This document shows positions 15,717 through 58,221 of a stretch of DNA of 64,000 bases, one piece after another. Made by a program: the position numbers and the translations under genes. This DNA comes from an uncultured Planctomycetia bacterium. GTDB lineage: Bacteria > Omnitrophota > Gorgyraeia > 2-02-FULL-51-18. The notes under the pieces were generated by a model that saw only the letters and a program-made list of their open reading frames with translations, was not told the origin of the DNA and ran no database searches. The DNA lies in assembly GCA_964642015.1 (NCBI GenBank), contig CAZXLF010000004.1, positions 115,001 through 179,000 on the forward strand. Reading direction: 5' to 3'. Within the stretch, counting starts at the first letter, position 1. Each line of letters begins with the position of its first letter.

Positions 15717-16376
15717 TTATTTTTGGAGAATGCCTTCGATCTCGAGCGTTATATCGACTTCATCTCCGACCAGAACTCCGCCTGTCTCAAGCGCTTCGTT
15801 CCAATTGAGGCCAAAGTCCTTGCGGTTTATCTTTGTGGTGGCTGTAAATCCGGCTCTCGTATTTCCCCAAGGATCTTTTCCGACCCCATGGATCTCGATA
15901 TCCAAAGTAACCGGTTTTTCGACGCCGTGTATCGTCAGAAGTCCTTCGAGCTTCGCGTTCGTTTCGGTCGCGGCGGCGACTTTTGTGCTCTTGAAGCTTA
16001 TCGCCGGATATTTTTCTACGTCAAAAAAATCAGCTGAGCGCAGATGCTTATCTCTTTCAGGAACATGCGTGTTGATGCTGGTCACGTCGATCGTACCACT
16101 GGTTTTCCATGTATCGGATTTACCGGGCTCATAATCGACAGTGCCGTCATATTTATCAAACCGTCCTTCGACCTTTGAAAAAAGATGGCGTATCTTGAAC
16201 GACACCGTTGAATGGTCTGGATCCACTTTATACGTGGCCGCCCAGGAAACCGTTGAATAAGAAAAAATGATCAATGCAACAAATACAAAATATTTGAAAA
16301 AACGCGCTATTTTAAACATTGCTCCCCCTTTTTTCTTTCTTTGCTGATCCGTTCTAGAACATCCAAACAACTTCAT
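15717..16376 (-). CDS. YceI-family periplasmic (polyisoprenoid-binding) protein
   Basis: 219 aa. Signal peptide. YKVDPDHSTVSFKIRHLFSKVEGRF is the YceI lipocalin-like signature. Confidence 0.75.
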   Translation of the reverse strand: MKLFGCSRTDQQRKKKGGAMFKIARFFKYFVFVALIIFSYSTVSWAATYKVDPDHSTVSFKIRHLFSKVEGRFDKYDGTVDYEPGKSDTWKTSGTIDVTSINTHVPERDKHLRSADFFDVEKYPAISFKSTKVAAATETNAKLEGLLTIHGVEKPVTLDIEIHGVGKDPWGNTRAGFTATTKINRKDFGLNWNEALETGGVLVGDEVDITLEIEGILQK

Positions 16377-16395: not shown

Positions 16396-17103
16396 CTAAA
16401 GCATTTTCCGCAGCTCTTCCTTTTTGAGGATAGAGATCTGATGAGGCCTGATATCAATGAGTTTTTTCCTTTTAAGCTCGTAAAGCTGGCGCGCCACAGT
16501 TTCACGCGCAACGCCTATTCTTTGCGCAAGTTCCTCGCGCGTGAATGGCACAGAAAGAATATTATCAGATTCGGTTTTATTACCATTGGCTGCCTGCAGC
16601 ATATCCAGCAGGAATTTGATCAGTCTCTTTTTGCTATCCTTTAAAGAAACCTCTTCTATCAACTCGCTGAAACATTGAAGGCGGTTCGCGAATAAGTTAT
16701 TCAGTGTATGCGACAGCTTCGCGTTCTCTTGGACCAGCTTTACATAATGATCCCGGGAAAGGAACCAGACATTGCTCGGCTCCAATGCTTCTGCTGAAGA
16801 AAAACAGCTCCAGTTCGTCGATCCGGGGTTGCAGGCGCAGGTATCACCGGGACCCAAGGTTTCCAGAATCTGTTCCCGGCCGGCGGAAGAGGTACGGTAG
16901 ATCTTTACTCTTCCCGACCGAACAAAAAATATGCGCTCGCAGGATTTACCCTCAAAAAAAAGGGATTCGCCCTTTTTAAAGGCCTTTTCATTCAAACAAT
17001 TTTTTACTATTGTGAGCTCTTCTTTGGACAAGCTTTGGAAAAATGGGACATTCTCAACAGCTATTGGCATCATTTGCTTCTTCCGAAAGCAAATATGCCA
17101 CAA
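16396..17103 (-). CDS. Crp/Fnr-family transcriptional regulator
   Basis: cNMP-binding beta-roll (…FFEGKSCERIFFVRSGRVKIY…) plus a C-terminal HTH (RETVARQLYELKRKKLI). The true start is probably the internal MMPIAV. Confidence 0.8.
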   Translation of the reverse strand: MWHICFRKKQMMPIAVENVPFFQSLSKEELTIVKNCLNEKAFKKGESLFFEGKSCERIFFVRSGRVKIYRTSSAGREQILETLGPGDTCACNPGSTNWSCFSSAEALEPSNVWFLSRDHYVKLVQENAKLSHTLNNLFANRLQCFSELIEEVSLKDSKKRLIKFLLDMLQAANGNKTESDNILSVPFTREELAQRIGVARETVARQLYELKRKKLIDIRPHQISILKKEELRKML

Positions 17104-17485: not shown

Positions 17486-17653
17486 TTACCGATTTCTCAT
17501 TAGCTGCGGAGCATGCTCTCCCATATACCGTGCCCGGATGCTTGCTTTTGCATTAGCAAGGGTTTTTGAACTTCCGACGATCTCCCCTGTGCTTTGCTTC
17601 ATGATCTTATAAGGCCTTTCATCGTGTGGTTTTTTCACGATACGATATGGCAT
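17486..17653 (-). CDS. unannotated 55-aa small ORF translationally coupled to rubrerythrin
   Basis: Manual translation: MPYRIVKKPHDERPYKIMKQSTGEIVGSSKTLANAKASIRARYMGEHAPQLMRNR. The ATG immediately follows the rubrerythrin TAA (TAAATG). Below the 60-aa cutoff of the ORF track. Confidence 0.3.
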   Translation of the reverse strand: MPYRIVKKPHDERPYKIMKQSTGEIVGSSKTLANAKASIRARYMGEHAPQLMRNR

Positions 17654-18286
17654 TTAAGAGATCCTCCGAAATTTATCTCTGGACGACCCGCATGACGGAC
17701 ATTTTTCTTTCGGAAATGAACCAGTCACATAACCGCAAACCGAGCAGACAAAAAAAGCGCGTTTTCCGTCCTTCCATAATTCCAGATCTTTCAACGCCTC
17801 ACTGAACAACAACGCATGCTGGTTCTCGGCGCGCTGCGCATAAGTAAATGTGCGCACCGTGTCCAGCATATTCTCGTCTTTTGCGGTTTGAATGAACTTG
17901 GAATACAGTTTCTGCGCTTCAAAGAATTCGCCGCGACTGGCAGAAGTTAAATTCTCTTGGGTGGATTTTACATCCATCGCAATGCGATATGGTTTTAAAG
18001 TTCCACCGAGTTTTTTGATGATGGACGCATGATTTTTAGCATGCACCAGCTCTCCCATCGCCACCGCTCTAAACAGACTTCCTAACGCCGGATAACCTTC
18101 TTCATCGGCCCTGTTCGCATAGGCCCAATACCGGTCACTGACATTGATCTCATCCGTGTAGGCATAGGTGATATTCTTCAGTGTGTAGAAATTAGGCCCC
18201 TGTGCTAATTGCGCCTTGGCAATGCTGGCAAACATAAGCGCGCCGGCCAATACCGCGAAACTCACCGCTATTTTATTCTTCATCAT
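17654..18286 (-). CDS. rubrerythrin with N-terminal signal peptide (probably periplasmic)
   Basis: Two ExxH diiron motifs (GELVHAKNH; AENQHALLF). C-terminal rubredoxin-like CSVC…CPSC. AGGAGG RBS 7 nt before ATGATG at 18286; the track start at 18310 is probably too far upstream. Signal-like MKNKIAVSFAVLAGALMFASIAKA. Confidence 0.8.
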   Translation of the reverse strand: MMKNKIAVSFAVLAGALMFASIAKAQLAQGPNFYTLKNITYAYTDEINVSDRYWAYANRADEEGYPALGSLFRAVAMGELVHAKNHASIIKKLGGTLKPYRIAMDVKSTQENLTSASRGEFFEAQKLYSKFIQTAKDENMLDTVRTFTYAQRAENQHALLFSEALKDLELWKDGKRAFFVCSVCGYVTGSFPKEKCPSCGSSRDKFRRIS

Positions 18287-18314
18287 GACGTCACCCTCCT
18301 TCCGACGCACAGCC

Positions 18315-18812
18315 TTATTTTATTTCTTTCAAAGACCGCGCCTTCGAATAAGTATTCACAGCTCTCGTGCGGCATCTTTTGCTGATGACCTTCGCGGGAG
18401 GCGGAGTCAAGCCCGTGGAAGACGTTCGTTCAACTTTCATATGGTGAGGCTTAAAAATTGGGGCCTTTGATTCAAATTCCAAGAATTCCTTCAAAATCGA
18501 AGCCACAGACAGATCGGGATGTTTGGCCCCATATAACAACATCACATTCTGCCCGCGAGCTATTTTTGCCAACGGCATCCACGCATTCTTCTTTTTTTCG
18601 AGTTCGTTAAAGTACCTCGCGCGAAAAGCATCACGTTTATCGACATCATGACGGTACCAACGCTGCAATTTTTCACTTGGTGCTAAAGTCCTAAGCCAGT
18701 CGTCTATCTCGGGAGTACGCCGATGCACGCCCCGCGGCCAAACACGATCGACCAAAAAACGGGCTTCTTTCTTTTCATTGGGGAGATGATGAATGCTTTC
18801 TATCCTTATCAT
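18315..18812 (-). CDS. DUF488-family protein
   Basis: N-terminal two-thirds match the DUF488 pattern (RVWPRGV…DDWLRTLAPS…LQRWYRHD). C-terminal extension of ~45 aa. Confidence 0.6.
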   Translation of the reverse strand: MIRIESIHHLPNEKKEARFLVDRVWPRGVHRRTPEIDDWLRTLAPSEKLQRWYRHDVDKRDAFRARYFNELEKKKNAWMPLAKIARGQNVMLLYGAKHPDLSVASILKEFLEFESKAPIFKPHHMKVERTSSTGLTPPPAKVISKRCRTRAVNTYSKARSLKEIK

Positions 18813-18836
18813 GTCAAACGCCTCCCTTCTACAAGA

Positions 18837-19310
18837 TCAATGGATCATGACAGCGATATCACCTACAATGGGACTCACGATCTTTTCGTAATCTTTATAA
18901 GCCATCCTCATTGCTTCAGAGTGCGTCCCCGCATTAAAAACGATCGTATTGTTTTCCGCTAACGATAAATCAACAACAACCGGCACTCCGTAAAGCTCTC
19001 CAAATGGAGGCATCGCTCCGGGTTCGCAATCCTGAAATATAGAAACAAACTCTTCTTCCGCCTCCAGCCGGATATCCTCTGTACCAAAAAGATACCTCAC
19101 CTTTAACATATCGATCCGGTGAGTGGCGGGTACTACGGCCATGACGTTCATACCGTCAACGCTTAGCATCACGACCTTCGCTTCTTTTTTTCCTGAAATA
19201 TGTTCCATTTCTGCCGTTGTTTGAGCAGTAAATGCTACCGGATGATCAACCAGATCATACGGCATCCGCTTTTCAACTAACATGCTTTCCAATTTTTGCC
19301 TGACGTTCAT
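18837..19310 (-). CDS. YbaK/ProX-like aminoacyl-tRNA deacylase domain protein
   Basis: 157 aa. YbaK-like fold pattern (…HPVAFTAQTTAEMEHISGKKEAKVVMLSVDG…NAGTHSEAMRM…). Confidence 0.55.
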   Translation of the reverse strand: MNVRQKLESMLVEKRMPYDLVDHPVAFTAQTTAEMEHISGKKEAKVVMLSVDGMNVMAVVPATHRIDMLKVRYLFGTEDIRLEAEEEFVSIFQDCEPGAMPPFGELYGVPVVVDLSLAENNTIVFNAGTHSEAMRMAYKDYEKIVSPIVGDIAVMIH

Positions 19311-19344
19311 GTTGGCTCCCTCCCTTTTTCCCTAACCATAACGC

Positions 19345-19755
19345 TCACGCAGCCCCTAAACTCTGATAACGTTCATTTCTTGCCCGTTCTTCAAGCGCCT
19401 CATCCACTTCTTCAATCGCCTCAAGCACCAGCGGCAAATAACGATCCAATCCGCAATTAAGCGTATCACGCAGCTCACAGACATCATTCTTTTTCTGCGA
19501 ACGGCAAGACATGCAAATATTTTCGCGGACCGCTTTATTATATGATTCGATTTTCGGATCGTTGAGACGCTGGGCGAGGATCACAAGCTGAGGCAGATAA
19601 CGAAGAAGGGCACATCCGTTCGGATCTTTAGTATGACACACACCATCAGCGCCCATATCCATACACTTGCCGCATACATGACGCTTTACCGCTTCTTCAA
19701 ACTCGACTTTGTTCCAGAAGAAGTAATTATTCCGATTTTCGCTCATCGAAATCAC
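19345..19755 (-). CDS. hypothetical Cys-rich protein with internal duplication (two CxxC-x8-C-x8-C…RYLP modules)
   Basis: 136 aa. Module 1 CGKCMDMGADGVCHTKDPNGCALLRYLP. Module 2 CMSCRSQKKNDVCELRDTLNCGLDRYLP. I recognise no family. Confidence 0.5.
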   Translation of the reverse strand: MISMSENRNNYFFWNKVEFEEAVKRHVCGKCMDMGADGVCHTKDPNGCALLRYLPQLVILAQRLNDPKIESYNKAVRENICMSCRSQKKNDVCELRDTLNCGLDRYLPLVLEAIEEVDEALEERARNERYQSLGAA

Positions 19756-19810
19756 CCCCCTTGCTAGGGTTTTCTTCTTCTTTCACTTATAATATACAAC
19801 GGTCAAAAAA

Positions 19811-19838
19811 ATCATCTGTGACATATGTCACAGATGAT
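19811..19838. promoter_or_regulatory. perfect 28-bp palindrome containing a consensus CRP-type site TGTGA-N6-TCACA
   Basis: ATCATCTGTGACATATGTCACAGATGAT. Core TGTGA at 19817-19821 and TCACA at 19828-19832. Centred ~70 nt upstream of the Cys-rich gene start, in the dps to Cys-rich intergenic region. Confidence 0.55.
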
Positions 19839-19907
19839 CTAAAATAATTGGTTAATTCTTTATTTTATAAGTCCTTTATTTTAAGTAGTTTACAGAATCA
19901 ATACCAT

Positions 19908-20381
19908 CTATTCTAATGTGGCCCTTAACATCCACGCCATTTTTTCATGTTTCTCCATTAAGCCCGTCAAAAAATCACTTGTACCTGCGTCGCCATATTT
20001 TTCGTTACAGGTCACAAGGTCCTCACGTAGGATATTGATGATCTCCTCATGGTCTTCAAGCAGCTTTAAAACCATCGCCTTTGAACTCGGATAATCCTTC
20101 GGAAATTCTTTGAGTCTCGCACACTTCAAGAACTCACCCATTGTTCCGATCGATCTTCCCCCTAACGCTCTTACTCTCTCGGCTGTATCATCGATAATAT
20201 CATTGAGCTCTTCGTACTGCGACTCAAAGAATTTATGAAGATCATGGAAATTGGGTCCGACGACATTCCAGTGGTAATTCCGCGTCTTGGCGTACAATAC
20301 ATACTCATCCGCCAAAAGCTGGTTCAGAATGTCGGCGGACCCTTCACGTTTCTTATCGGGAATTCCTATATCAGTTCTCAT
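19908..20381 (-). CDS. dps: Dps (DNA protection during starvation) ferritin-like protein
   Basis: 157 aa. LLADEYVLYAKTRNYHWNVVGPNFHDLHKFFESQYEEL is the Dps ferroxidase-site region. Confidence 0.85.
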   Translation of the reverse strand: MRTDIGIPDKKREGSADILNQLLADEYVLYAKTRNYHWNVVGPNFHDLHKFFESQYEELNDIIDDTAERVRALGGRSIGTMGEFLKCARLKEFPKDYPSSKAMVLKLLEDHEEIINILREDLVTCNEKYGDAGTSDFLTGLMEKHEKMAWMLRATLE

Positions 20382-20409
20382 TACCGCTCCTTTCTTAAAG
20401 CAGTTTTGA

Positions 20410-20868
20410 CTATTGGATCTGGATCTTCACTTCTCTCGGCTTGGCGGTCGCATCCTTCGGAAGATGGATCTCCACGACACCATCCTTGTAAGATGCCTTG
20501 ACGTCGGTCGCTCTCACCTTCGACGGTAGCTCCACTGCCCTGGAGAAAGTACCGTGAAATCTCTCGGCGTAGTAATAATCTTTGCCCTTTTTCTCCTGTT
20601 CTTCTTTTCTTTCGCCTTTGACGGTGAGAATATCATCCTGCACACTGATATTCAATTCGTCTTTTTTAATGCCCGGTATATCAGCGCGGACAATAACTTC
20701 ATCTTTTTCATCCTTCACGTCAATATCGGGAGCAAAAAAAGTCTCTTCGCCTTTTAACAAGTGTGATGATCTCAACGGCCTTTCCATTAACCTGTCCATC
20801 TCTTCCTGTAAATTCCTCAGCGTTCCAAACGGTTCCCACAAATCCCCTCTCCTGATCAAATGATTCAT
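20410..20868 (-). CDS. Hsp20/alpha-crystallin small heat-shock protein
   Basis: 152 aa. Alpha-crystallin domain (…FAPDIDVKDEKDEVIVRADIPGIKKDELNISVQDDILTVKGER…GTFSRAVELP). Confidence 0.85.
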   Translation of the reverse strand: MNHLIRRGDLWEPFGTLRNLQEEMDRLMERPLRSSHLLKGEETFFAPDIDVKDEKDEVIVRADIPGIKKDELNISVQDDILTVKGERKEEQEKKGKDYYYAERFHGTFSRAVELPSKVRATDVKASYKDGVVEIHLPKDATAKPREVKIQIQ

Positions 20869-20936
20869 GGCCTGGCCCTCCTTTTAGTTCTTAACTCTGA
20901 TCCGTAATTATTTTATCAAGCAATACGTCGCTGAAA

Positions 20937-20952
20937 CTGTGACAAGCGTCAC
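20937..20952. promoter_or_regulatory. CRP-type half-palindromic site TGTGA-N6-TCACT upstream of hsp20
   Basis: TGTGACAAGCGTCACT, centred ~76 nt upstream of the Hsp20 start. Same spacing as the site at 19811-19838. Confidence 0.4.
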
Positions 20953-20967
20953 TAAAAAACGAATTTT

Positions 20968-26462: not shown

Positions 26463-28097
26463 CTATTTGTTCAAAGTTTTAGCGATCACAGCTGCAAATG
26501 TTGATATCGCATACGGTTTAGTAAGATAAGCAAGTGCCCCGTCGTGCATGAGATCCTCGCTAGTTCCCTCGGAAGTATAACCGCTGGACACAACAATCTT
26601 CGCATTCGGATTCACTTCTAAAATTTTTCTCAAGGTTTCACGGCCGGTCAATTTCGGCATCGTCATATCAAGAACCACCAAACGGATCTTTTGGTAGTTA
26701 TCTTTATAAACCCGCACCGCCTCCATTCCGTCTTTAGCCATGATAACTTGGTAACCTAATTTTTCCAAAAAAAGGCGCCCGACATTGCGCACATTCTCCT
26801 CGTCATCAGCAAAAAGGATCAACCCTTCTCCGCGCGGCAAAGCGGATGTTTCTTGACTGGGCCGTTGCTCCACCTTAGCGTCTGGTTTAGCCGGCAAATA
26901 GATAGTAAATACGCTGCCTTTGTCTACTTCGCTGGCCACATCGATCCAACCTTTGTGAGCGGTCACAATATTCAGCGCCATGGCCAGACCCAATCCGCTG
27001 CCGCCTTCCTTTCTCTTCGTGGTATAAAACGGCTCGAAAATATGCGGGAGAACATCCGGAAGGATTCCGCTCCCCGTATCTTGCACGCGTATAAAAATGT
27101 AATGATTTGAATGAGAGTGGTGCTGAAGTTGCTCCGCGGTCAACTGAGCATTGCCGGCCTCGATCAAAAGCTGCCCGCCGGTAGATAACATCGCATCCTT
27201 GGCGTTTGTCACCAGATTCATCAGCACCGTCTCTATTTCGCCTTCATTGCCATAGACGGGCCATAAGTCGTCATCGATGTAAACAGCCATCTCTATGGTC
27301 TTTGGCAACACCGTCTGAAAAAGGGTCCGGGTCTCATTAAGGATATTCTGAAGCTTGATCATCGATTTTTGATGGGATGACGGCCGGCTGACATCCTTGA
27401 TCTTCTTGACGATATCGACACAACGTTGCGCAGCCTGTTGCGCTTCCACCAATATATCTATATCCACCTCCTGCGAATTATCTTTATGCTCTCTGATAAA
27501 AATATCCAAATAGCCCAGAACAGGTGTCATCTGATTGTTCAGATCATGGGCAATACCTCCCGCGAGGGTCCCGATAAGTTCCATTTTTTGCGCCTGCAAA
27601 AGCTGCGCTTCCAACTTCTTCTTTTCCGTGATATCCAGCTTGATACCGAGCAAGCTCAACACTTTACCTTCACCGCTCAAAATCGGAACGATCGTGGCAG
27701 ATTCCCAGTAGAAGGTCCCGTTTTTATGCTTATTGTGAAATTCTCCGCGCCATTCGCGGCCGTTCAAAACCGTATCCCACAACTCCTGGAATATGGCCTG
27801 CGGCATTTCTCCTGATTTTAAAATACGGGGATTTTTGCCAAGCACCTCTACTGCGGAATAACCGCTGACCTCCTCAAAATTCTTGTTAACAAATTGAATG
27901 TTCCCTTTGGGATCCGTGATCATAATGCTTGCCGGTGTCTGCTCAACGGCCGTGGACAAACGCTGTAATTCGTTTTCCGTCGCTTTGTGTTCCGCTGTGC
28001 GCCGAGAAAGTTGGGCCCGTAAAATGATGGTCCATGCTGTTAGCAAAACCAAAATGGCCGCAAAAACCAAGCAGATGACCCAAAAGAAAGCGCTCAT
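26463..28097 (-). CDS. hybrid sensor histidine kinase (TM, PAS, HisKA, HATPase, C-terminal receiver)
   Basis: H-box AHDLNNQMTPVLGY. G-box GSGLGLAMALNIV. C-terminal receiver ILFADDEENV…VLDMTMP. Confidence 0.85.
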   Translation of the reverse strand: MSAFFWVICLVFAAILVLLTAWTIILRAQLSRRTAEHKATENELQRLSTAVEQTPASIMITDPKGNIQFVNKNFEEVSGYSAVEVLGKNPRILKSGEMPQAIFQELWDTVLNGREWRGEFHNKHKNGTFYWESATIVPILSGEGKVLSLLGIKLDITEKKKLEAQLLQAQKMELIGTLAGGIAHDLNNQMTPVLGYLDIFIREHKDNSQEVDIDILVEAQQAAQRCVDIVKKIKDVSRPSSHQKSMIKLQNILNETRTLFQTVLPKTIEMAVYIDDDLWPVYGNEGEIETVLMNLVTNAKDAMLSTGGQLLIEAGNAQLTAEQLQHHSHSNHYIFIRVQDTGSGILPDVLPHIFEPFYTTKRKEGGSGLGLAMALNIVTAHKGWIDVASEVDKGSVFTIYLPAKPDAKVEQRPSQETSALPRGEGLILFADDEENVRNVGRLFLEKLGYQVIMAKDGMEAVRVYKDNYQKIRLVVLDMTMPKLTGRETLRKILEVNPNAKIVVSSGYTSEGTSEDLMHDGALAYLTKPYAISTFAAVIAKTLNK

Positions 28098-28483
28098 TGT
28101 GAATGTCCGGGAAATTGGAGCAGAAGAATATTTCTCAAATAATCGAAATCGATCGGCTTAGTCACATAACCCCACGCGCCGAGATCGAACGCACGCCTAC
28201 CCTCTTCCTCATCGTGGCGACCTGTCACAATGATCACAGGTAAACCTGGTCTTACGGATTTAATTTTCTTTAGAATTTCCAGACCGCTCATATCAGGCAA
28301 GCCTAGATCGCAAAGGACAACAGAAACGCTTGTTTTTTTGATCCTTTCAAGCGCAGCGTTGCCAGTCGCTTCACCAATAACAGCATAACCCTCTGTCTCA
28401 AGATTCAATTTGATCAAATGAACTATAGAAGGCTCATCTTCAACAACTAAAATAACTATTGGGAAGGGCTTTTCTTGTGGCAT
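28094..28483 (-). CDS. single-domain response regulator (receiver only)
   Basis: 129 aa. VVEDEPSI…VLCDLGLPDMSG…K pattern. Confidence 0.75.
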   Translation of the reverse strand: MPQEKPFPIVILVVEDEPSIVHLIKLNLETEGYAVIGEATGNAALERIKKTSVSVVLCDLGLPDMSGLEILKKIKSVRPGLPVIIVTGRHDEEEGRRAFDLGAWGYVTKPIDFDYLRNILLLQFPGHSQ

Positions 28484-45102: not shown

Positions 45103-45987
45103 TCAAAGTCTATTCATCGAGCCTTTGGTTCTAAAATCCCTAGCGATCGCATAAAATGGATAAAAAAGCTGGCGTAATGGCATGATAAATAAATCCAAAA
45201 AACTTGTCTTCCTCTCCAAAGGAAATTGACCGTCTTTAATCCCTGTATCCGGATATTCATTAATAATATCAGACTGCGTATTAAAGATCCTGTCCCAAAA
45301 TGAGAACATGATGCCAAAATTTTTTTCCTGAAATTGACGTTCAAAAGAATGGTGAAGTCTATGCGACTGAGGGGTGACAAAGATATGACGTAAAAAACCC
45401 AAGTTTGATTTAATGTTGGAATGATAAAAACGGACTTGCCATGTTGAAAAGATCCCAAAAGCAATGATATTAGGCATATCGACCGCCAAAATCATCATCG
45501 GAATCAAAACAATGGGTCGTGAAACGATATATTCAATAAAATGAAAACGCTCATTAGTGAACATGTTGAGCTGACGTTGCGAATGGTGGACTGCATGAAA
45601 CTGCCAGAGCCAAGGGACCTTATGCATAAGCCAATGTTTGAACCATTGCAAAAGGTCGGATAAAACCACGCCTATCATGAAGGACACAATTTGAGGCAGA
45701 TGACCTTTCCATGGCACTGTCAAAAAACTAAAATATTTATTATAAAGAAATGTGAAAGCTTTCACATACACGGCCACCACTGTACTTACAAACAGCAGGG
45801 CCATTAGCAACCAGACGCTATCATGAAGAAATCCGATGCTCAATGTTTCCTGTTTGGGGTCGACGGGGAATAAGCGCTCTAAAATCAGGATGATCGTCAC
45901 AGCAATAATAAAAATAGGGCTGTAAACAGTCTCTTGAAGTACAGACGTGATCCCATGAATTAAAAATAGATATAATCGATTATACAT
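45103..45987 (-). CDS. sterol-desaturase / fatty-acid-hydroxylase superfamily membrane enzyme (copy 2, tandem paralog)
   Basis: ~60% identical to copy 1 over the full length, with the same histidine boxes (HWLMH, HAVHHS, HRLHHS). Confidence 0.75.
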   Translation of the reverse strand: MYNRLYLFLIHGITSVLQETVYSPIFIIAVTIILILERLFPVDPKQETLSIGFLHDSVWLLMALLFVSTVVAVYVKAFTFLYNKYFSFLTVPWKGHLPQIVSFMIGVVLSDLLQWFKHWLMHKVPWLWQFHAVHHSQRQLNMFTNERFHFIEYIVSRPIVLIPMMILAVDMPNIIAFGIFSTWQVRFYHSNIKSNLGFLRHIFVTPQSHRLHHSFERQFQEKNFGIMFSFWDRIFNTQSDIINEYPDTGIKDGQFPLERKTSFLDLFIMPLRQLFYPFYAIARDFRTKGSMNRL

Positions 45988-48209: not shown

Positions 48210-48962
48210 TCAATAGACTTTTGCAGGTATTGACGCATAGGATTGAAGTTGATCGGCAATATGTTGCAATTTATCTTTACCGACAGGCAAGATACCCTGC
48301 TCTTGAGTGGTACGATCAACCGTATAAATTTGCACTTTTATGGGACGGATAAAGGATATGGCCTCGATCCAATTTTTTATATCGCGTTCGCTAATATTTT
48401 TAATATTACCAGTAACGAACATACTTTGTATAGTCGTATCTTGCAAGTCACGCAGACCGACAAGCATGCTGTCCCAATCAAGTTTCGCGATCGGGCGGTT
48501 AATATATTGACATAGGTAACGGTTGCCTGCATCCAATTTCATAAAGCGTCCATCCAGCTTCGAAAGTGCGATGTGGATCTCTTTTTTCTGGCATGTCGAG
48601 GAATTGGAAAGAATGCCGAGCGGCTTGTTTGGAAAAAAGAGGTTCCGCAATGTCGTCAAACCATCTACGATTTCCGGAAATTGAGGATGAAGCGTCGGTT
48701 CTCCGTTGCCGGACAGCATAAGCCAATCTATTTCTGTGCCCATATCTCTGATCCTCTCAAAATCCGATGAAAGCTGAGCGTAAATATCACCAAAACCGGG
48801 GAAATGCTCGTTACCGATACCGGCTGTGTACTGACAATAAATGCAATCAAATGAGCAGGTCCGCCGATCTATAGGCAAGATATTGATGCCGAGAGATTTA
48901 CCAAATCGCCTTGAGTCCACAGGACCGTAAACCATACGAGATTGAAGTTGTACCGTCTTCAT
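48210..48962 (-). CDS. radical SAM protein (COG0731-like)
   Basis: N-terminal YGPVDSRRFGKSLGINILP followed by the CxxxCxxC cluster CSFDCIYCQ. Confidence 0.7.
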   Translation of the reverse strand: MKTVQLQSRMVYGPVDSRRFGKSLGINILPIDRRTCSFDCIYCQYTAGIGNEHFPGFGDIYAQLSSDFERIRDMGTEIDWLMLSGNGEPTLHPQFPEIVDGLTTLRNLFFPNKPLGILSNSSTCQKKEIHIALSKLDGRFMKLDAGNRYLCQYINRPIAKLDWDSMLVGLRDLQDTTIQSMFVTGNIKNISERDIKNWIEAISFIRPIKVQIYTVDRTTQEQGILPVGKDKLQHIADQLQSYASIPAKVY

Positions 48963-49465
48963 TTGCTAGCCTTTTTGACGCACTCGATTAGCTGTTTTTT
49001 TTCATCGGGGCGCAATTCATCCTCAGCGATCCGGTAAAGAACTTGGGTCTCCACTTGCATATGGCCCCTAAGAAAGCAAATAAGATAGGTGAACTGTTCG
49101 TTGATCTTGTAGATCAGAAATGCCCTGTCCGCGGCAGGTTTTTGAGCTTTCGACAAAGAGGATTTTAATTTGTTCATGCTGTCCCTGAAATCGCTATGTT
49201 CGGAATTCAAAAGGCCGATCATCGGCTTTAGCTTCGGAATATGCCGTGCTAAGAAAGGGAACAATATCTTCTCCTCTTCTATCATGTGGCTTTCAAAATC
49301 TTTTTTAAAATTCGACACGAACTCTTGAGCATGTTTCAAATTCTTACTCAGATTTTGTTTGCCTTCAAAGCGGAGTTTTTCAAGAACGCTGTAGAATTGA
49401 TTCAGATCACGCGCGGTTTGCCTATGATCCCGTTCGAACATCTCAGAAAGGCTTCTAGTTGACAT
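48959..49465 (-). CDS. hemerythrin-like (HHE cation-binding) domain protein
   Basis: Spaced H/HxxxE motifs (ERDHRQ; HMIEEE; SEHSDF; HMQVE). Confidence 0.5.
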   Translation of the reverse strand: MSTRSLSEMFERDHRQTARDLNQFYSVLEKLRFEGKQNLSKNLKHAQEFVSNFKKDFESHMIEEEKILFPFLARHIPKLKPMIGLLNSEHSDFRDSMNKLKSSLSKAQKPAADRAFLIYKINEQFTYLICFLRGHMQVETQVLYRIAEDELRPDEKKQLIECVKKASK

Positions 49466-49557
49466 AGTTTACACCCCTTCTTTCTGAAATAAATTAAACT
49501 ATATAACGCCATAATAATCTGTGATGTCCGTCACTGATATTGGAAAACCATAAAAAT

Positions 49558-53181: not shown

Positions 53182-55293
53182 TCAGCCCCAATTGATCTTT
53201 GCTTCAAGCCAAAACGTATGGGCGTTGTAACTGCCTATTTCAGCCTCATTGGCGCTGTACTGATACCATGAATATTTCGGCTCGAGCGACAGATCTTTGT
53301 TCAGCTTCCAGGAACAGCCTAACGTTAGATCCACCTGATGAAAATCAGCGCCATAGGGCATTCCAATGATACTAAAATCTTGAAAGTTAGCCGCGCGAAT
53401 ATAATCCGCAGTGCCGGTCAGGATAATATCCTTTGTCAAAGCATACTCGGCACTGAACAGCGTGGTATAAGAGTCGAAATTAAATGTCGGGATAGCTGAC
53501 GCCAGACCCGTGGAACGATCAGGAGTAATGATCTTTCCGTCTTGAAAAGAAAATGATGCCGTCAGCAAAAGATCGTCCACCGGCTGGCTTGATAAATCCC
53601 AAGTATATATATTTGAAATAAGTGCCGTACCTACACTCACATCGTCATTGGGCAGACCCCACGCGGTGTACCGCTTATCCTGGAGCTGATAGCGAAAAGT
53701 TGGCTGAAACCAGCGGACAGGTTTCCAGCTGACGCGAGTTTCAAATTCATCCGTCGCCGTGGACTGTTTATCAATAAATGTAAGCGAAGTATCGCCACCG
53801 TTATTGAATAGATGATTGTAATGAATATCATCCAGTTTATGACGGACTTGAGCCGTTAATGTAACGTGATTCAATGGAAAAATCTGCGCGCCAAGCGTGC
53901 CGGAACCCCTGTACATATGGTCAAGTTCCTGGCGGTTTAAAGTGGTAGCTGCACTGGCACTTGTCAGGTTCATATAAAGGTCGTCCCTGACTTGTTGAAA
54001 ATCATAATCGTTATAAATGGAAACATGCGGAATCCCGCCATAGCGAAACGATACGCTTTCACCATAGCTCATCCTCTTGTCCTGGTTGTTGGCCACATCG
54101 ATCTGATCAATGGATCCGTCCGGCACCGCAGGAGAAATATCCTGAGGCGTTGTAGATTCGCTTCGGCGGTTGATAGCTTCGACCTTAAACCTTGTAATGG
54201 CCGTTATCGGGTTAAGCAATGTCGTCATGAAACTCATCACGCCTGTTTGCGATATGTAATGATTATCCGCAAACGCATTCACCCACTGCTTTGGATTGGC
54301 AAAATTATGGAGCACTCCATTGCCTGTCAACTCATTCAAATTATCCAATTCATGGCTATCGACCTGCGAAAAACGATAGTCGCCGGACACATAGATTTTC
54401 TCTTTCCAAAACCACCGGTTCACACCCAAGAGTGTGGTAAGCAAATCCGTGCGCGGAGACTGATACAGGTCGCGGATCTTGGCATTCGCGTCAGGTGAGC
54501 CGGACACCACTGTATCAAGTTGTTTTTCTTCGCGCATATCATTAGCACGCGTAAATTCCCATCTTTGCTCCGCATTCCAATTAAAACCGGCGACCGTGTC
54601 ATCCAGCTTAGCGCCAAATGAATCAGTTATTTCGTCGATCTGCTGCCACGAGGGAGCGATCTTTCTAACCGTCGATGCGCCAACCCCCGGCGCATTATCG
54701 GTTACACTCGCCCACGATAAGCGCGACTTTGTACCCTCCTTAAAATCACGCTCATAGTCTAACGTGATATCAGGCATATTTTTGATTGAAAGCCCTGCCT
54801 CGACGCCGAACTTTCCAATATTAAGCGCCAATTCTTTATCTGTGTAATTTTGCGCAAGATTAACAAAAGGCCGATATAATCCGCCTGCGTTGCTGTAATA
54901 TTTACGAAACTCGCTATAATCAAAATTAAGATATGCGATGTCATCCTTTTTAAAATGGGCCGATCCGCTGTAATCTCCGTCTTCGGGTATGACATGGCCT
55001 TCTGATTCCAGCGATACATCATTTGAAAATTCCTTATTCAGCTTAAAATCTTTTACACCAAACGCAAAACCGTCATCCATCCAGTGAAGTGCACGGAACT
55101 TGCTCGAATCCCCATCGATAAAAGTGTATCGAGCAGGATCGGCCGTAAGAGAAAAATCTATAGGGTCGGTCTTCGTCTCGGCCGAGTCGCCGGCTAGCAA
55201 AGAATTGGACAATGATAACATCAACAAAAAACCGGACGACACTGCGATAAAATTTTTATAATCCATTTTGCGCATGAATAGCTCCTTAATCAA
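53182..55293 (-). CDS. large outer-membrane beta-barrel protein (MtrB/MtoB/PioB-like porin candidate)
   Basis: 703 aa. Signal peptide. Alternating hydrophobic/polar beta-strand pattern throughout, rich in Tyr/Asn/Asp/Gly. Overlaps the upstream cytochrome gene by 4 nt. Confidence 0.55.
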   Translation of the reverse strand: MIKELFMRKMDYKNFIAVSSGFLLMLSLSNSLLAGDSAETKTDPIDFSLTADPARYTFIDGDSSKFRALHWMDDGFAFGVKDFKLNKEFSNDVSLESEGHVIPEDGDYSGSAHFKKDDIAYLNFDYSEFRKYYSNAGGLYRPFVNLAQNYTDKELALNIGKFGVEAGLSIKNMPDITLDYERDFKEGTKSRLSWASVTDNAPGVGASTVRKIAPSWQQIDEITDSFGAKLDDTVAGFNWNAEQRWEFTRANDMREEKQLDTVVSGSPDANAKIRDLYQSPRTDLLTTLLGVNRWFWKEKIYVSGDYRFSQVDSHELDNLNELTGNGVLHNFANPKQWVNAFADNHYISQTGVMSFMTTLLNPITAITRFKVEAINRRSESTTPQDISPAVPDGSIDQIDVANNQDKRMSYGESVSFRYGGIPHVSIYNDYDFQQVRDDLYMNLTSASAATTLNRQELDHMYRGSGTLGAQIFPLNHVTLTAQVRHKLDDIHYNHLFNNGGDTSLTFIDKQSTATDEFETRVSWKPVRWFQPTFRYQLQDKRYTAWGLPNDDVSVGTALISNIYTWDLSSQPVDDLLLTASFSFQDGKIITPDRSTGLASAIPTFNFDSYTTLFSAEYALTKDIILTGTADYIRAANFQDFSIIGMPYGADFHQVDLTLGCSWKLNKDLSLEPKYSWYQYSANEAEIGSYNAHTFWLEAKINWG

Positions 55294-56114
55294 TATCGGA
55301 GTTTATCGCTAAAATTTGAACCATGCACCGCCGTATGGCATCCTGCGCTCCAACAGGTGCCTTCACTCCATTGGCCTGTCGCGGCGCCTCCGCCGTGATT
55401 ATGCGCGCCGATGATCGGGACATTCAGTTCAGTGTGGCAACGCAAACAAAGGTTATGATCGCGTGCGATCAGCATCTTTTCATGGATCGAGCCATGGACT
55501 TTATGGCAAGTCTGGCATCCTTCGCGCAACGCTTCATGTTCCCACGCAAACGGGCCCCGCTTGTCCTTATGGCACTTGAAACAGGCTTCATTGACATCGC
55601 GCATCGTCGTCGCAGACCAAGGTCTGACTTCTTCTCCATGCGGGGAATGGCAATCTGCGCAACTCATTTTGCCTTCAAGCACCGGATGATGATACGGCAA
55701 ACGGAATTCCATTTTTTTATCGGTATGACAAGCAAAACAAGCGGAAGGATCCTTCTTCGGATTGATAATATTTCCTCGCCCGCCGCCCGCATCGACGTGA
55801 ATGCTCGCCGGGCCGTGGCACATTTCACAATCTTTCACGTCGCCATCTTTGACGCTGATCCGGGCATGCGTAGACAAACGAAATTCCTTCTCTTCTTTCT
55901 CGTGGCACGACGCGCAGGTATCCGAACCGACATATTTAGCCCCTTTAAAAGCCAAAAGTTTTGCTAACGAGCCCTCATTGTTATCCACATTGACAACATT
56001 TTTATCCTCTGCCTGAACTGCGCCGGAAACAAAAAATAGAATGATAACTAAGGCAAAAAATTTGGCCGGCTTTTTAATGCGAAAAAAATTTGAAAAATCC
56101 TTTTGTTTTATCAT
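55290..56114 (-). CDS. periplasmic multihaem c-type cytochrome (7 CxxCH plus 1 possible CX4CH; MtrA/MtoA/OmaB-like)
   Basis: 274 aa. Signal peptide. CASCH, CEMCH, CFACH, CADCH, CFKCH, CQTCH, CLRCH and a terminal CWSAGCH. Very high haem density, about one per 34 aa. Confidence 0.8.
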   Translation of the reverse strand: MIKQKDFSNFFRIKKPAKFFALVIILFFVSGAVQAEDKNVVNVDNNEGSLAKLLAFKGAKYVGSDTCASCHEKEEKEFRLSTHARISVKDGDVKDCEMCHGPASIHVDAGGGRGNIINPKKDPSACFACHTDKKMEFRLPYHHPVLEGKMSCADCHSPHGEEVRPWSATTMRDVNEACFKCHKDKRGPFAWEHEALREGCQTCHKVHGSIHEKMLIARDHNLCLRCHTELNVPIIGAHNHGGGAATGQWSEGTCWSAGCHTAVHGSNFSDKLRY

Positions 56115-56230: not shown

Positions 56231-56278
56231 TTTTAGACTAGCAAATAGTCTAAGAGCAGTCTGTGACAAATGTCACTT
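56231..56278. promoter_or_regulatory. 8-bp inverted repeat (TTAGACTA-N5-TAGTCTAA) next to a CRP-type site TGTGA-N6-TCACT in the cytochrome/ccsBA divergent region
   Basis: TTTTAGACTAGCAAATAGTCTAAGAGCAGTCTGTGACAAATGTCACTTAA. The CRP-like core is at 56263-56278. Confidence 0.4.
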
Positions 56279-58220: not shown

Positions 58221-58221
58221 T

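What the first reader, a model, noticed from the sequence alone, without database searches (positions are those of the whole stretch)
17486..20868. Stress-defence gene string with an apparently secreted rubrerythrin
Co-directional genes: hsp20, dps, Cys-rich repeat protein, YbaK-like deacylase, DUF488, rubrerythrin and a coupled 55-aa ORF. This looks like an oxygen/peroxide defence unit of an anaerobe. The rubrerythrin carries an N-terminal hydrophobic signal-like segment (MKNKIAVSFAVLAGALMFASIAKA). Classical rubrerythrins are cytoplasmic, so a periplasmic peroxide reductase that needs periplasmic electron donors (cytochromes?) would be unusual.
Basis: partly seen in the sequence, partly recalled or inferred. 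Interest (0 to 1): 0.5.

Follow-up and report, generated by a model that had tools for sequence, protein, structure and literature searches.

The report
Exported (periplasmic) rubrerythrin in stress regulon
A peroxide-destroying iron enzyme normally assumed to work inside the cell here carries a genuine export signal; hundreds of bacterial species have similar exported versions, often next to a membrane protein that could feed them electrons, and I found no paper describing this.

Summary
Seven co-directional minus-strand genes lie at 17486-20868: hsp20, dps, an 8-Cys protein, a YbaK-like protein, DUF488, rubrerythrin and a coupled 55-aa ORF. The rubrerythrin can only start at ATG 18286/18283. 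That start has a strong Shine-Dalgarno, and no other in-frame start lies upstream of the first iron ligand. Its first 25 residues form a textbook Sec signal (K-rich n-region, hydrophobic core, AKA|Q). All diiron and Fe(Cys)4 ligands are intact. The export signal is not a one-off. In a nigerythrin-like clade with a 13-residue loop insertion, 126 of 147 cluster representatives and 76 of 80 species-level genome loci carry Sec, lipoprotein or Tat signals. Only 1 of 40 classical rubrerythrins does. Some relatives are surface proteins with up to 8 rubrerythrin units plus SLH domains. In at least 45 of 76 relatives' loci the next gene encodes a membrane redox protein: DUF2231 (with or without cytochrome c), a NOX-like ferric-reductase/FAD/NAD protein, or a Tat-Rieske protein. 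The window has no such neighbour. The string is two transcription units, each with a CRP-type box (TGTGAC-N4-GTCACA) about 42 nt upstream of the predicted transcription start. The same box precedes the hemerythrin and multihaem cytochrome genes. No paper found describes exported rubrerythrins. Verdict: new variant of a known kind.

The parts
20938..20953 (-). CRP-type box (AGTGACGCTTGTCACA on the minus strand) upstream of hsp20. Its centre lies 30.5 nt upstream of the extended -10 TGaTAAAAT (hexamer 20910-20915).
20410..20868 (-). hsp20 (small heat-shock protein, 152 aa).
   Evidence: Pfam PF00011, E 1.3e-24.
19908..20381 (-). dps (Dps/ferritin-like, 157 aa), 28 nt after hsp20.
   Evidence: PF00210, E 5.8e-32. 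NCBIfam Dps 90 bits, below the cut-off of 114.
19811..19838 (.). 28-nt perfect palindrome ATCATCTGTGACAT|ATGTCACAGATGAT followed by T7. It contains a perfect CRP-type box TGTGACATATGTCACA (19817-19832). Likely operator of the second unit and possibly the terminator of hsp20-dps. The -10-like TATTAT lies at 19789-19794.
19345..19746 (-). Cys-rich protein (133 aa from ATG 19746). It has two C-x2-C-x8-C-x7-C...RYLP repeats and 8 conserved Cys (6 invariant, 2 in at least 90% of 17 homologues). Unannotated family.
18837..19310 (-). YbaK/ProX-like aminoacyl-tRNA-editing-domain protein (157 aa). Not a YbaK equivalog.
   Evidence: PF04073, E 2.3e-23. TIGR00011 35.7 bits against a cut-off of 153.
18315..18812 (-). 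DUF488 protein (165 aa; best match is the 'inactive DUF488-N3' subclade).
   Evidence: PF22752, E 5.6e-33.
18294..18299 (-). Shine-Dalgarno GGAGGG, 7 nt before the rubrerythrin ATG.
18212..18286 (-). Signal peptide coding region, residues 1-25: MMKNKIAVSFAVLAGALMFASIAKA, predicted cut AKA|QLAQ.
17654..18211 (-). Mature nigerythrin-like rubrerythrin. Four-helix diiron bundle at residues 33-166 (nt 17789-18190). Clade-specific loop at residues 93-108 (nt 17963-18010). Fe(Cys)4 domain at residues 178-209 (nt 17657-17755). Stop at 17654-17656.
17486..17653 (-). 55-aa basic protein, translationally coupled (TAAATG; SD GGAGGA at 17662-17667). Conserved small-protein family also found next to dps and in phage contigs.
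17154..17411 (-). DUF2582 winged-helix protein. The likely true start is GTG 17381, after a GGAGGG.
16396..17103 (-). Crp/Fnr-family regulator (cNMP-binding plus HTH_Crp_2). Its recognition helix RETVAR resembles E. coli CRP RETVGR. Candidate regulator of the boxes.
15717..16319 (-). YceI-like periplasmic protein with its own signal peptide (start ATG 16319).
49520..49535 (.). CRP-type box upstream of the hemerythrin gene (48959-49465, minus strand).
56262..56277 (.). CRP-type box between the heptahaem cytochrome c gene (55290-56114, minus strand) and the ResB/CcsA cytochrome c maturation genes (56442-59820, plus strand).
28223..28238 (.). CRP-type box upstream of the PAS histidine kinase/receiver gene (26463-28097, minus strand).

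Best explanation
The gene at 17654-18286 (minus strand) encodes a catalytically intact, nigerythrin-like rubrerythrin made as a precursor with a Sec-type signal peptide (cut after AKA25). It is exported unfolded to the periplasm and takes up iron there.

Its Fe(Cys)4 domain would then accept electrons from periplasmic or membrane carriers and pass them to the diiron site. That site reduces H2O2 to water outside the cytoplasm. In this organism the carriers are probably c-type cytochromes. In relatives they are a DUF2231 membrane protein, a NOX-like ferric-reductase/FAD/NAD protein, or a Tat-exported Rieske protein encoded next door.

The gene is fourth in a five-gene unit: Cys-rich, YbaK-like, DUF488, rubrerythrin, 55-aa protein. 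The unit's promoter carries a CRP-type palindrome centred about 42 nt upstream of the predicted transcription start. hsp20-dps is a second unit with the same box and geometry. The same box precedes the hemerythrin, multihaem cytochrome/cytochrome-maturation and PAS-kinase genes. The Crp/Fnr regulator encoded just downstream of the string probably drives them all as one stress regulon.

Shown: gene content, start codon, ligand set, conservation of export signals across the clade, neighbour genes in relatives, enrichment and conservation of the box.

Inferred: actual export and cleavage, peroxidase activity, the electron donor, and which regulator and signal act.
For: **Start codon.** There is a unique SD-backed start and no downstream alternative before the first iron ligand.

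**Signal.** n-region charge +2, h-region residues 6-23, AKA|Q at residue 25. AF2 models residues 3-28 as a separate, lower-confidence helix in front of a pLDDT-94 rubrerythrin fold.

**Catalytic residues.** E46, E79/H82, E120/E123, E154/H157, Y53, Y128 and C181/C184/C196/C199 are all present.

**Clade evidence.**
- 126/147 representatives at 50% identity carry an N-terminal signal, against 1/40 classical rubrerythrins (Fisher p = 1e-23).
- 76/80 species-level genome loci carry one, including 17 lipoboxes.
- A few members have bona fide SRRxF Tat motifs.
- Multi-rubrerythrin proteins carry SLH, Big_2 or Ig surface domains.

**Partners.** The gene immediately downstream, on the same strand, is DUF2231 (22 loci), DUF2231-cytochrome c (3), FRD/FAD/NAD (13) or Tat-Rieske (7) in 45 of 76 loci. 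Three further cases occur in metagenome loci.

**Regulon.**
- 6 boxes in the window against 1.55 expected; 0 of 100 shuffles reach 6; 5 of the 6 are intergenic.
- The same geometry is seen in four promoters.
- The box lies directly upstream of the closest exported-rubrerythrin relative (L003), of the 55-aa-dps operon (L085) and of hemerythrin (L090). Background is 0.11 hits per 10 kb.

**Periplasmic cytochromes.** Multihaem cytochromes c and system II cytochrome maturation genes are present in the window.
Against: - No trained signal-peptide predictor could be run. My heuristic only detects N-terminal hydrophobic segments: it flags 36 of 62 large ORFs in the window, many of them membrane proteins. 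It cannot separate a cleaved signal from an uncleaved anchor.
- The window has no DUF2231, FRD or Rieske partner anywhere in its 64 kb, so the donor is unknown here.
- The window protein is an isolated lineage: at most 51% identity to anything found.
- Two of its three nearest relatives have degenerate diiron ligands (P0024, and E154D in P0178).
- Sec export requires post-export assembly of both iron sites and protection of the CxxC pairs from oxidation. Neither has been demonstrated for any rubrerythrin.
- The profile used included signal-peptide columns, a slight ranking bias.
- No experiment in the literature shows a periplasmic rubrerythrin.
Confidence: 0.7

Rival explanations
1. The hydrophobic N-terminus is an uncleaved signal anchor. 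The rubrerythrin domain faces the periplasm but stays tethered to the cytoplasmic membrane, close to membrane electron donors.
For: The uncharged stretch is fairly long, 17-18 residues. AF2 draws one continuous helix over residues 3-28. Many relatives are lipoproteins or carry long Pro/Ala/Lys tethers, so membrane proximity is common in the clade.
Against: A canonical AxA site (AKA|Q) follows a Gly-containing core. A split into a 14-residue h-region plus a 6-residue c-region fits SPase I substrates.
Confidence: 0.15
2. The protein is exported but is not primarily an H2O2 reductase. It acts instead as a periplasmic ferroxidase or iron-detoxifying protein, an O2 reductase, or a redox sensor.
For: A review cited in PMC3672088 lists ferroxidase and other in-vitro activities for rubrerythrins. 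The gene sits in a regulon with Dps and hemerythrin. Some exported relatives have lost the rubredoxin cysteines or diiron ligands. No dedicated reductant is encoded next to the window gene.
Against: The window protein keeps the full ligand set of characterised peroxidase rubrerythrins, plus the electron-input Fe(Cys)4 domain. Most relatives are paired with electron-delivering membrane proteins, as expected for a reductase that consumes electrons.
Confidence: 0.12
3. The protein is cytoplasmic. Either translation starts downstream of the hydrophobic segment, or the N-terminal helix inserts N-out/C-in so that the enzyme sits on the cytoplasmic face of the membrane.
For: All characterised rubrerythrins and nigerythrin are cytoplasmic (PMC545781). 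A few long-loop relatives lack any signal (for example P0117, P0140, P0174).
Against: No usable downstream start exists. The positive charges (K3, K5) precede the helix, which by the positive-inside rule predicts N-in/C-out. Lipobox, Tat and SLH relatives can only be extracytoplasmic. DUF2231-cytochrome c partner fusions place the donor in the periplasm.
Confidence: 0.03

Closest known systems
Nigerythrin of Desulfovibrio vulgaris (PDB 1yuz/1yux)
   Same: Best solved-structure match (E 2e-25) and best NCBIfam match. Same diiron four-helix bundle plus C-terminal Fe(Cys)4 domain. Shares the roughly 13-residue insertion in the loop between helices B and C that marks the clade.
   Different: Nigerythrin's N-terminal extension is polar with no hydrophobic core, and the protein is regarded as cytoplasmic. 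The window protein scores 110 bits against an equivalog cut-off of 340, so it is not an orthologue.
Classical rubrerythrins (D. vulgaris 1ryt/1lkm, P. furiosus 1nnq/3mps)
   Same: Pfam Rubrerythrin plus RUBY_RBDX domains above threshold. Identical metal-ligand pattern. Presumed NAD(P)H- or rubredoxin-linked H2O2 reductase chemistry.
   Different: Classical forms are 164-195 aa, have the short loop, and carry no signal peptide (39 of 40 scored none). They take electrons from cytoplasmic rubredoxin or NADH oxidoreductases.
Bacterial dihaem cytochrome c peroxidase (CcpA): the known periplasmic H2O2 reductase
   Same: Works like it in outline: a periplasmic enzyme reducing H2O2 with electrons from the respiratory chain or periplasmic carriers (from my own knowledge; Nitrotoga preprint 10.1101/317552).
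   Different: Unrelated fold and cofactors (two c haems against non-haem diiron plus Fe(Cys)4).
MsrPQ (YedYZ): a ferric-reductase-domain haem b membrane protein feeding a periplasmic repair enzyme
   Same: Architectural analogy for the relatives' two-gene modules. A membrane FRD-type or His-rich protein is encoded beside an exported redox enzyme. Hajjar et al. 2017 cite it as a model for bacterial NOX-like proteins with acceptors other than O2.
   Different: The acceptor here is a rubrerythrin, not a molybdoenzyme. The FRD partners here carry their own FAD/NAD domains. No such partner is present in the window.
CRP-like HcpR regulon of Desulfovibrio (TTGTGA-N6-TCACAA)
   Same: Same half-site type, and a Crp/Fnr-family regulator encoded near its targets in an anaerobe (PMC545781). 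The regulator has the R-E-x-x-x-R recognition helix.
   Different: The targets here are stress and redox genes (hsp20, dps, rubrerythrin, hemerythrin, cytochromes). No hcp gene is in the window. Orthology to HcpR was not tested.

Membership tests
Rubrerythrin family (Pfam PF02915 + PF21349) | Profile match above the curated threshold for both the diiron and the rubredoxin-like domain. | tested here: met
   PF02915 69.2 bits (cut-off 22.8); PF21349 35.5 bits (cut-off 26.5).
Rubrerythrin family | Diiron ligand set E...ExxH...ExxE...ExxH plus the two second-sphere Tyr. | tested here: met
   E46, E79, H82, E120, E123, E154, H157, Y53 and Y128 are present and conserved in the alignments.
Rubrerythrin family | C-terminal Fe(Cys)4 site, CxxC...CxxC. 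| tested here: met
   C181, C184, C196, C199. These are the only Cys in the mature protein.
Rubrerythrin family | Four-helix bundle plus rubredoxin-like fold. | tested here: met
   AF2 pLDDT 94; helices 33-62, 66-92, 109-137, 141-166; beta-strand domain 178-209. PDB sequence matches.
Rubrerythrin family | H2O2 reductase (peroxidase) activity. | not testable with these tools
   Needs biochemistry.
Rubrerythrin family (as described in the literature) | Cytoplasmic location, no targeting sequence. | tested here: not met
   N-terminal Sec-type signal. The literature treats rubrerythrin as cytoplasmic. This is the point of difference, not a structural criterion.
Nigerythrin (NCBIfam NF045783 equivalog) | Score at or above the equivalog cut-off. 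| tested here: not met
   110.1 bits against a cut-off of 340.
Nigerythrin-like subfamily (informal) | Roughly 13-residue insertion between helices B and C. | tested here: met
   Loop length 34 against 21 in classical forms. Aligns with the nigerythrin loop.
Sec/SPase I signal peptide | Positive n-region, 7-15+ residue hydrophobic h-region, small residues at -3/-1, no twin arginine. | tested here: met
   K3 and K5; core IAVSFAVLAGALMF; A(-3) K A(-1) | Q. Heuristic only.
Sec/SPase I signal peptide | Positive call by a trained predictor (SignalP/Phobius), or experimental cleavage. | not testable with these tools
   No such predictor is available. My heuristic has low specificity against TM anchors.
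CRP/FNR-type class II activated promoter | Palindromic TGTGA-N6-TCACA site centred near -41.5 relative to the start, with a -10 element about 30 nt downstream. | tested here: met
   The centres lie 30.5 nt upstream of TAAAAT and TATTAT in the window, and 29.5 nt upstream in L003 and L085.
CRP/FNR-type class II activated promoter | Regulator binding and a mapped transcription start. | not testable with these tools
   Needs EMSA or footprinting and 5'-RACE.
YbaK Cys-tRNA(Pro) deacylase | Equivalog-level match. | tested here: not met
   TIGR00011 35.7 bits against a cut-off of 153.25. Only superfamily membership (PF04073).

The most novel reading that the evidence does not exclude
Exported nigerythrin-like rubrerythrins form a widespread, undescribed extracytoplasmic H2O2-reductase system. 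It is found in Acidobacteriota, Planctomycetota, Hydrogenedentota, Lentisphaerota/Verrucomicrobiota, Omnitrophota, Cyanobacteria, Desulfobacterota and monoderm surface proteins. It would be powered across the membrane by dedicated, co-encoded partners: NOX-like FRD/FAD/NAD proteins, the uncharacterised five-His DUF2231 membrane proteins (with or without a cytochrome c domain), or Tat-Rieske lipoproteins. That would give bacterial NOX homologues and DUF2231 a physiological electron acceptor, and it would make these NOX homologues remove ROS rather than produce it. The window gene would be a partner-less member fed by multihaem cytochromes of the same CRP-type regulon.
Probability: 0.45. Interest if true: 0.8.

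Novelty: new variant of a known kind. Interest (0 to 1): 0.6.

Why it matters
Rubrerythrin is the textbook cytoplasmic peroxide reductase of anaerobes. Periplasmic peroxide defence has been attributed to cytochrome c peroxidases, catalases and thiol peroxidases.

- **Location.** A large exported clade would mean that non-haem diiron peroxidases also protect the cell envelope, including cytochromes, hydrogenases and, in monoderms, surface layers.
- **Cofactor assembly.** Most members use Sec signals, which implies that both iron sites assemble after export.
- **Partner function.** The conserved pairing with NOX-like ferric-reductase proteins and DUF2231 gives two membrane-protein families of unknown bacterial function a testable acceptor.
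- **This organism.** The finding defines a compact CRP-type stress regulon linking Hsp20, Dps, hemerythrin, cytochromes, two uncharacterised small protein families and the exported enzyme.

Tried and rejected
- **FNR-type box** TTGAT-N4-ATCAA: 88 hits at up to 2 mismatches against 62 expected, and none in the promoter regions upstream of hsp20 or of the Cys-rich gene. Dropped in favour of the CRP-type box.
- **Generic sigma-70 and terminator scan** of 15.5-21.6 kb: not above shuffles.
- **tRNA and Rfam scans** of the window: nothing.
- **Organism identification**: the exact-sequence clusters carry no names. The species is absent from the species-representative genome set, where the best match is 48% identical. 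The organism stays unidentified.
- **Close relatives in metagenome contigs**: the single-protein scan found none. The subclade-profile scan gave at most 46% identity.
- **Partner genes in the window**: HMMs of DUF2231, FRD-NOX, Rieske and DUF2231-cytochrome c, plus tblastn, gave no hit.
- **Fold of the Cys-rich protein**: no PDB match at E < 0.001. The afdb50 library was unavailable.
- **Literature**: 'periplasmic rubrerythrin' 0 papers; rubrerythrin + DUF2231 0 papers. No paper links rubrerythrin with FRD/NOX. The rubrerythrin phylogeny paper PMC5114695 contains no mention of signal, periplasm, export or lipoprotein. Other candidate papers mention rubrerythrin only generically.
- **Anabaena RbrA (Alr1174)**: I could not establish whether it belongs to the lipoprotein cyanobacterial branch.
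- **Neighbour analysis caveat**: crude ORF calling in GC-rich loci creates spurious antisense ORFs, so 45/76 is a lower bound.

Full report
**1. What is in the sequence**

The interval 17486-20868 holds seven closely spaced minus-strand ORFs. Pfam assigns five of them:

| Gene | Coordinates | Pfam |
|---|---|---|
| hsp20 | 20410-20868 | HSP20 |
| dps | 19908-20381 | Dps/Ferritin |
| YbaK-like | 18837-19310 | tRNA_edit |
| DUF488 | 18315-18812 | DUF488 |
| rubrerythrin | 17654-18310 ORF | Rubrerythrin + rubredoxin-like domain |

The Cys-rich ORF and the 55-aa ORF match no Pfam or NCBIfam family. Gaps are 0-34 nt, except for 152 nt between dps and the Cys-rich gene. The rubrerythrin stop and the 55-aa start abut (TAAATG), with GGAGGA upstream.

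**2. The start codon**

In the rubrerythrin frame, only ATG 18286/18283 follows a Shine-Dalgarno. This is GGAGGG at 18294-18299, 7 nt spacing, with an anti-SD duplex of -12.2 kcal/mol. The other candidates upstream of the first ExxH motif score at most -5.1, and a GTG at 18046, already inside the domain, scores -7.3.

After the ATG inside the hydrophobic core (18235), the next in-frame start is at ORF codon 83. That is beyond the first iron-ligand helix. The gene callers behind the public copies used the same 210-aa product.

**3. The N-terminus as a signal**

The sequence is MMKNKIAVSFAVLAGALMFASIAKA|QLAQG.
- Two Lys precede a Gly-containing hydrophobic core.
- An AxA site follows it.
- There is no twin arginine.
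- AF2 gives a separate helix over residues 3-28 at pLDDT 72-83, in front of a pLDDT 94-99 rubrerythrin fold.

My classifier is a home-made heuristic. A calibration on the window showed it is really an N-terminal hydrophobic-segment detector: 36 of 62 large ORFs were flagged, many of them membrane proteins. It cannot distinguish a cleaved signal from an anchor. SignalP was not available.

**4. The enzyme is intact**

All diiron ligands are present and conserved: E46, E79, H82, E120, E123, E154, H157. So are the second-sphere Tyr53 and Tyr128 and the four rubredoxin-type Cys. The mature protein has no other Cys.

The best solved relative is nigerythrin (1yuz, E 2e-25). It shares a roughly 13-residue insertion between helices B and C. 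The NCBIfam nigerythrin equivalog score is 110 against a cut-off of 340, so the window protein is nigerythrin-like but not an orthologue.

**5. The signal is a clade property**

- **Word-indexed search.** This returned about 27 relatives of 200-240 aa, at 36-51% identity. Nearly all carry hydrophobic N-termini. Some have lipoboxes (LIAINGC, CIAGC, LVGC) and some have Pro/Ala/Lys-rich tethers. The 164-168-aa classical proteins have none.
- **Exhaustive profile search.** This found 726 clusters (50% identity) at E <= 1e-30. Of the 147 best new representatives, 126 have an N-terminal signal-like segment: 95 SPase-I-like, 23 lipobox, 4 RR-containing, 4 hydrophobic only. Only 1 of 40 classical rubrerythrins does (Fisher p = 1e-23).
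- **Species-representative genomes.** The pattern matched in at least 482 species. Of the best 80 loci, 76 encode a signal (57 SPI-like, 17 lipobox, 2 RR). They come from Acidobacteriota, Planctomycetota, Hydrogenedentota, Omnitrophota, Lentisphaerota/Verrucomicrobiota, Cyanobacteria, 'delta proteobacteria'/Desulfobacteraceae, Nitrospirales and others.
- **Independent architectural evidence.** P0200, P0215 and P0153 have canonical SRRxF twin-arginine motifs. P0076 is a 1957-aa protein with a signal peptide, eight complete rubrerythrin units, an InlB B-repeat and SLH cell-wall anchors. P0077 has six units plus Big_2, and others carry Ig-type domains.
- **Tree.** A neighbour-joining tree groups the long-loop sequences, almost all with signals, apart from the short-loop classical ones. 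A small signal-less long-loop subgroup and nigerythrin sit within or beside the long-loop group.

**6. Who feeds it electrons**

I clustered the neighbours of the 76 analysable genome loci. The gene immediately downstream on the same strand was:
- a DUF2231 membrane protein in 22 loci;
- a DUF2231-cytochrome c fusion in 3;
- a ferric-reductase-TM/FAD/NAD (NOX-like) protein in 13;
- a Tat/lipobox Rieske protein in 7, all cyanobacterial.

That makes 45 of 76, a lower bound given crude ORF calling. Three more DUF2231 or DUF2231-cytochrome c cases appeared in metagenome loci, and one in L004.

The NOX-like partner keeps the H-x13-H and H-x12-H bis-haem motifs (sequence). The DUF2231 partners have five highly conserved His, four invariant and one in 21 of 22. 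A fused cytochrome c domain must be periplasmic, which places the donor on the same side as the exported enzyme.

DUF2231 is mentioned in a single paper of the library. Hajjar et al. 2017 explicitly wondered whether bacterial NOX homologues serve acceptors other than O2, by analogy with MsrQ-MsrP.

The window itself has no such partner in its 64 kb. It does encode hexa- and heptahaem c-type cytochromes and ResB/CcsA. For this organism the donor remains an inference.

**7. Regulation and the 'string'**

- **Second unit.** Between dps and the Cys-rich gene lies a 28-nt perfect palindrome containing TGTGACATATGTCACA, followed by T7. Its centre is 30.5 nt upstream of TATTAT.
- **First unit.** Upstream of hsp20 lies AGTGACGCTTGTCACA. 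Its centre is 30.5 nt upstream of an extended -10, TGaTAAAAT.
- **Enrichment.** TGTGA-N6-TCACA with at most 1 mismatch occurs 6 times in the window against 1.55 expected, and 0 of 100 shuffles reach 6. Five of the six sites are intergenic. Besides the two above, they lie before the hemerythrin gene, between the heptahaem cytochrome and ResB/CcsA, and before a PAS histidine kinase.
- **Conservation elsewhere.** The box sits directly upstream of the closest exported-rubrerythrin relative (L003, with TGtTATTCT 29.5 nt from the centre). It also sits upstream of a 55-aa-homologue-dps-rhodanese-Crp operon (L085), and between Crp and hemerythrin in L090/L091. Background is 0.11 hits per 10 kb over 1.15 Mb of unrelated loci.
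- **Candidate regulator.** The Crp/Fnr gene just downstream of the string has a RETVAR recognition helix like CRP's RETVGR. CRP-like boxes are used by HcpR in Desulfovibrio (PMC545781).

I therefore read the 'string' as two class-II-type units of one CRP-family stress regulon. The sensed signal (O2, H2O2 or NO) is unknown.

**8. The two unannotated genes**

- **55-aa protein.** Homologues of 67-72% identity occur two genes downstream of the L003 rubrerythrin, fused operonically to dps in L085, and in phage contigs in front of terminase or chaperonin genes. It is real, basic, and not rubrerythrin-specific.
- **Cys-rich protein.** It belongs to a family of about 120-130-aa proteins with eight conserved Cys (six invariant, two in at least 90% of 17 homologues) in two repeats. 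AF2 gives pLDDT 80 and there is no PDB fold match. In L090/L091 its homologue lies inside a Crp-hemerythrin-multihaem cytochrome-...-GGDEF-NapC/NirT-NrfA cluster. Those are the same families that carry or neighbour the box in the window at 47-56 kb. This supports a functional link to that regulon.

**9. Comparison with what is known, and novelty**

Structurally this is a rubrerythrin of the nigerythrin-like branch, and the membership criteria are met (see table). It differs in the one property the literature takes for granted:
- A Ruminococcus secretome paper notes that rubrerythrin 'would normally be assumed to be intracellular'.
- The dedicated rubrerythrin phylogeny paper never mentions signals or export.
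- Full-text searches for periplasmic rubrerythrin, rubrerythrin + DUF2231, and rubrerythrin + FRD/NOX found nothing relevant.

The library lacks most subscription journals, so absence of prior description is not proven. I rate it a new variant of a known kind. It is common in genomes but apparently undescribed, and it comes with a mechanistic lead (the partner genes) from outside the window.

**10. Caveats**

- No trained signal predictor and no experiment were available.
- The window protein is a lone lineage, at most 51% identical to anything found.
- Two near relatives have degenerate active sites.
- The donor in this organism is unknown, and the organism itself is unidentified.
- The profile contained signal columns.
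- The tree is a quick neighbour-joining tree without support values.

Noticed in passing
P0076, P0077, P0078, P0084, P0143, P0086: Giant secreted proteins with 2-8 tandem complete rubrerythrin units behind a signal peptide. They are combined with SLH, InlB B-repeat, Big_2, Ig or He_PIG surface domains. P0076 is 1957 aa with 8 units plus SLH anchors.
   Followed up: partly
L005-L084 (for example L015 8608-9387, L034 8556-10148, L036 8634-9080, L041 8804-9520); L096, L098, L099: The gene immediately downstream of exported rubrerythrins is a DUF2231 membrane protein (with or without a cytochrome c domain), a NOX-like ferric-reductase/FAD/NAD protein, or a Tat-lipobox Rieske protein in at least 45 of 76 loci. 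DUF2231 has five highly conserved His (four invariant, one in 21 of 22) and is essentially uncharacterised.
   Followed up: partly
window 19817-19832, 20938-20953, 28223-28238, 45751-45766, 49520-49535, 56262-56277; L003 7916-7931; L085 5927-5942; L090 605-620: A CRP-type palindrome TGTGAC-N4-GTCAC(A/T) is enriched in the window (6 against 1.55 expected). It is conserved upstream of rubrerythrin, dps and hemerythrin genes in related contigs, with class-II spacing to -10 elements.
   Followed up: yes
window 17486-17653; L003 9093-9263; L085 6001-6174; L087 1221-1373; L089 4098-4274: The 55-aa protein family (MPYRIVK...RPYKI.K..TG..VG.SKT...AKASIRARY) occurs next to stress genes in bacteria and in front of terminase or chaperonin genes in phage contigs. 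Function unknown.
   Followed up: partly
window 19345-19746; L090 5001-5381: The 8-Cys two-repeat protein family has no Pfam or NCBIfam model and no PDB fold match. Elsewhere it is embedded in a Crp-hemerythrin-multihaem cytochrome-NrfA cluster.
   Followed up: partly
P0020, P0039, P0052; P0024, P0178: Some exported clade members have lost the rubredoxin cysteines, and others have lost diiron ligands. This suggests non-catalytic or differently wired derivatives.
   Followed up: no
window 53182-55293 (minus strand); L090 2502-4565: A roughly 700-aa protein with no Pfam match overlaps the stop of the heptahaem cytochrome gene by 4 nt. A 687-aa protein, also with no Pfam match, lies in the same position after the paired-CXXCH cytochrome in L090/L091. 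It may be an uncharacterised partner of that cytochrome. Homology between the two was not tested.
   Followed up: no
window 16396-17103 (minus strand): The Crp/Fnr-family regulator has a Cys cluster in its sensor domain (GDTCACNPGSTNWSC). This may be a redox- or metal-sensing site.
   Followed up: no
whole window: Nearly every window protein checked is a singleton at 90% identity. The species is missing from the species-representative genome collection, so the source organism could not be named. Some homologues of the small proteins come from Omnitrophota MAGs.
   Followed up: partly
cyanobacterial loci L011, L035-L037, L039, L045, L047: Cyanobacterial members carry lipoprotein signals and are followed by a Tat-Rieske gene. 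I could not determine whether the characterised heterocyst RbrA (Alr1174), reported as an FNR/NADPH-dependent peroxidase, belongs to this exported branch.
   Followed up: no
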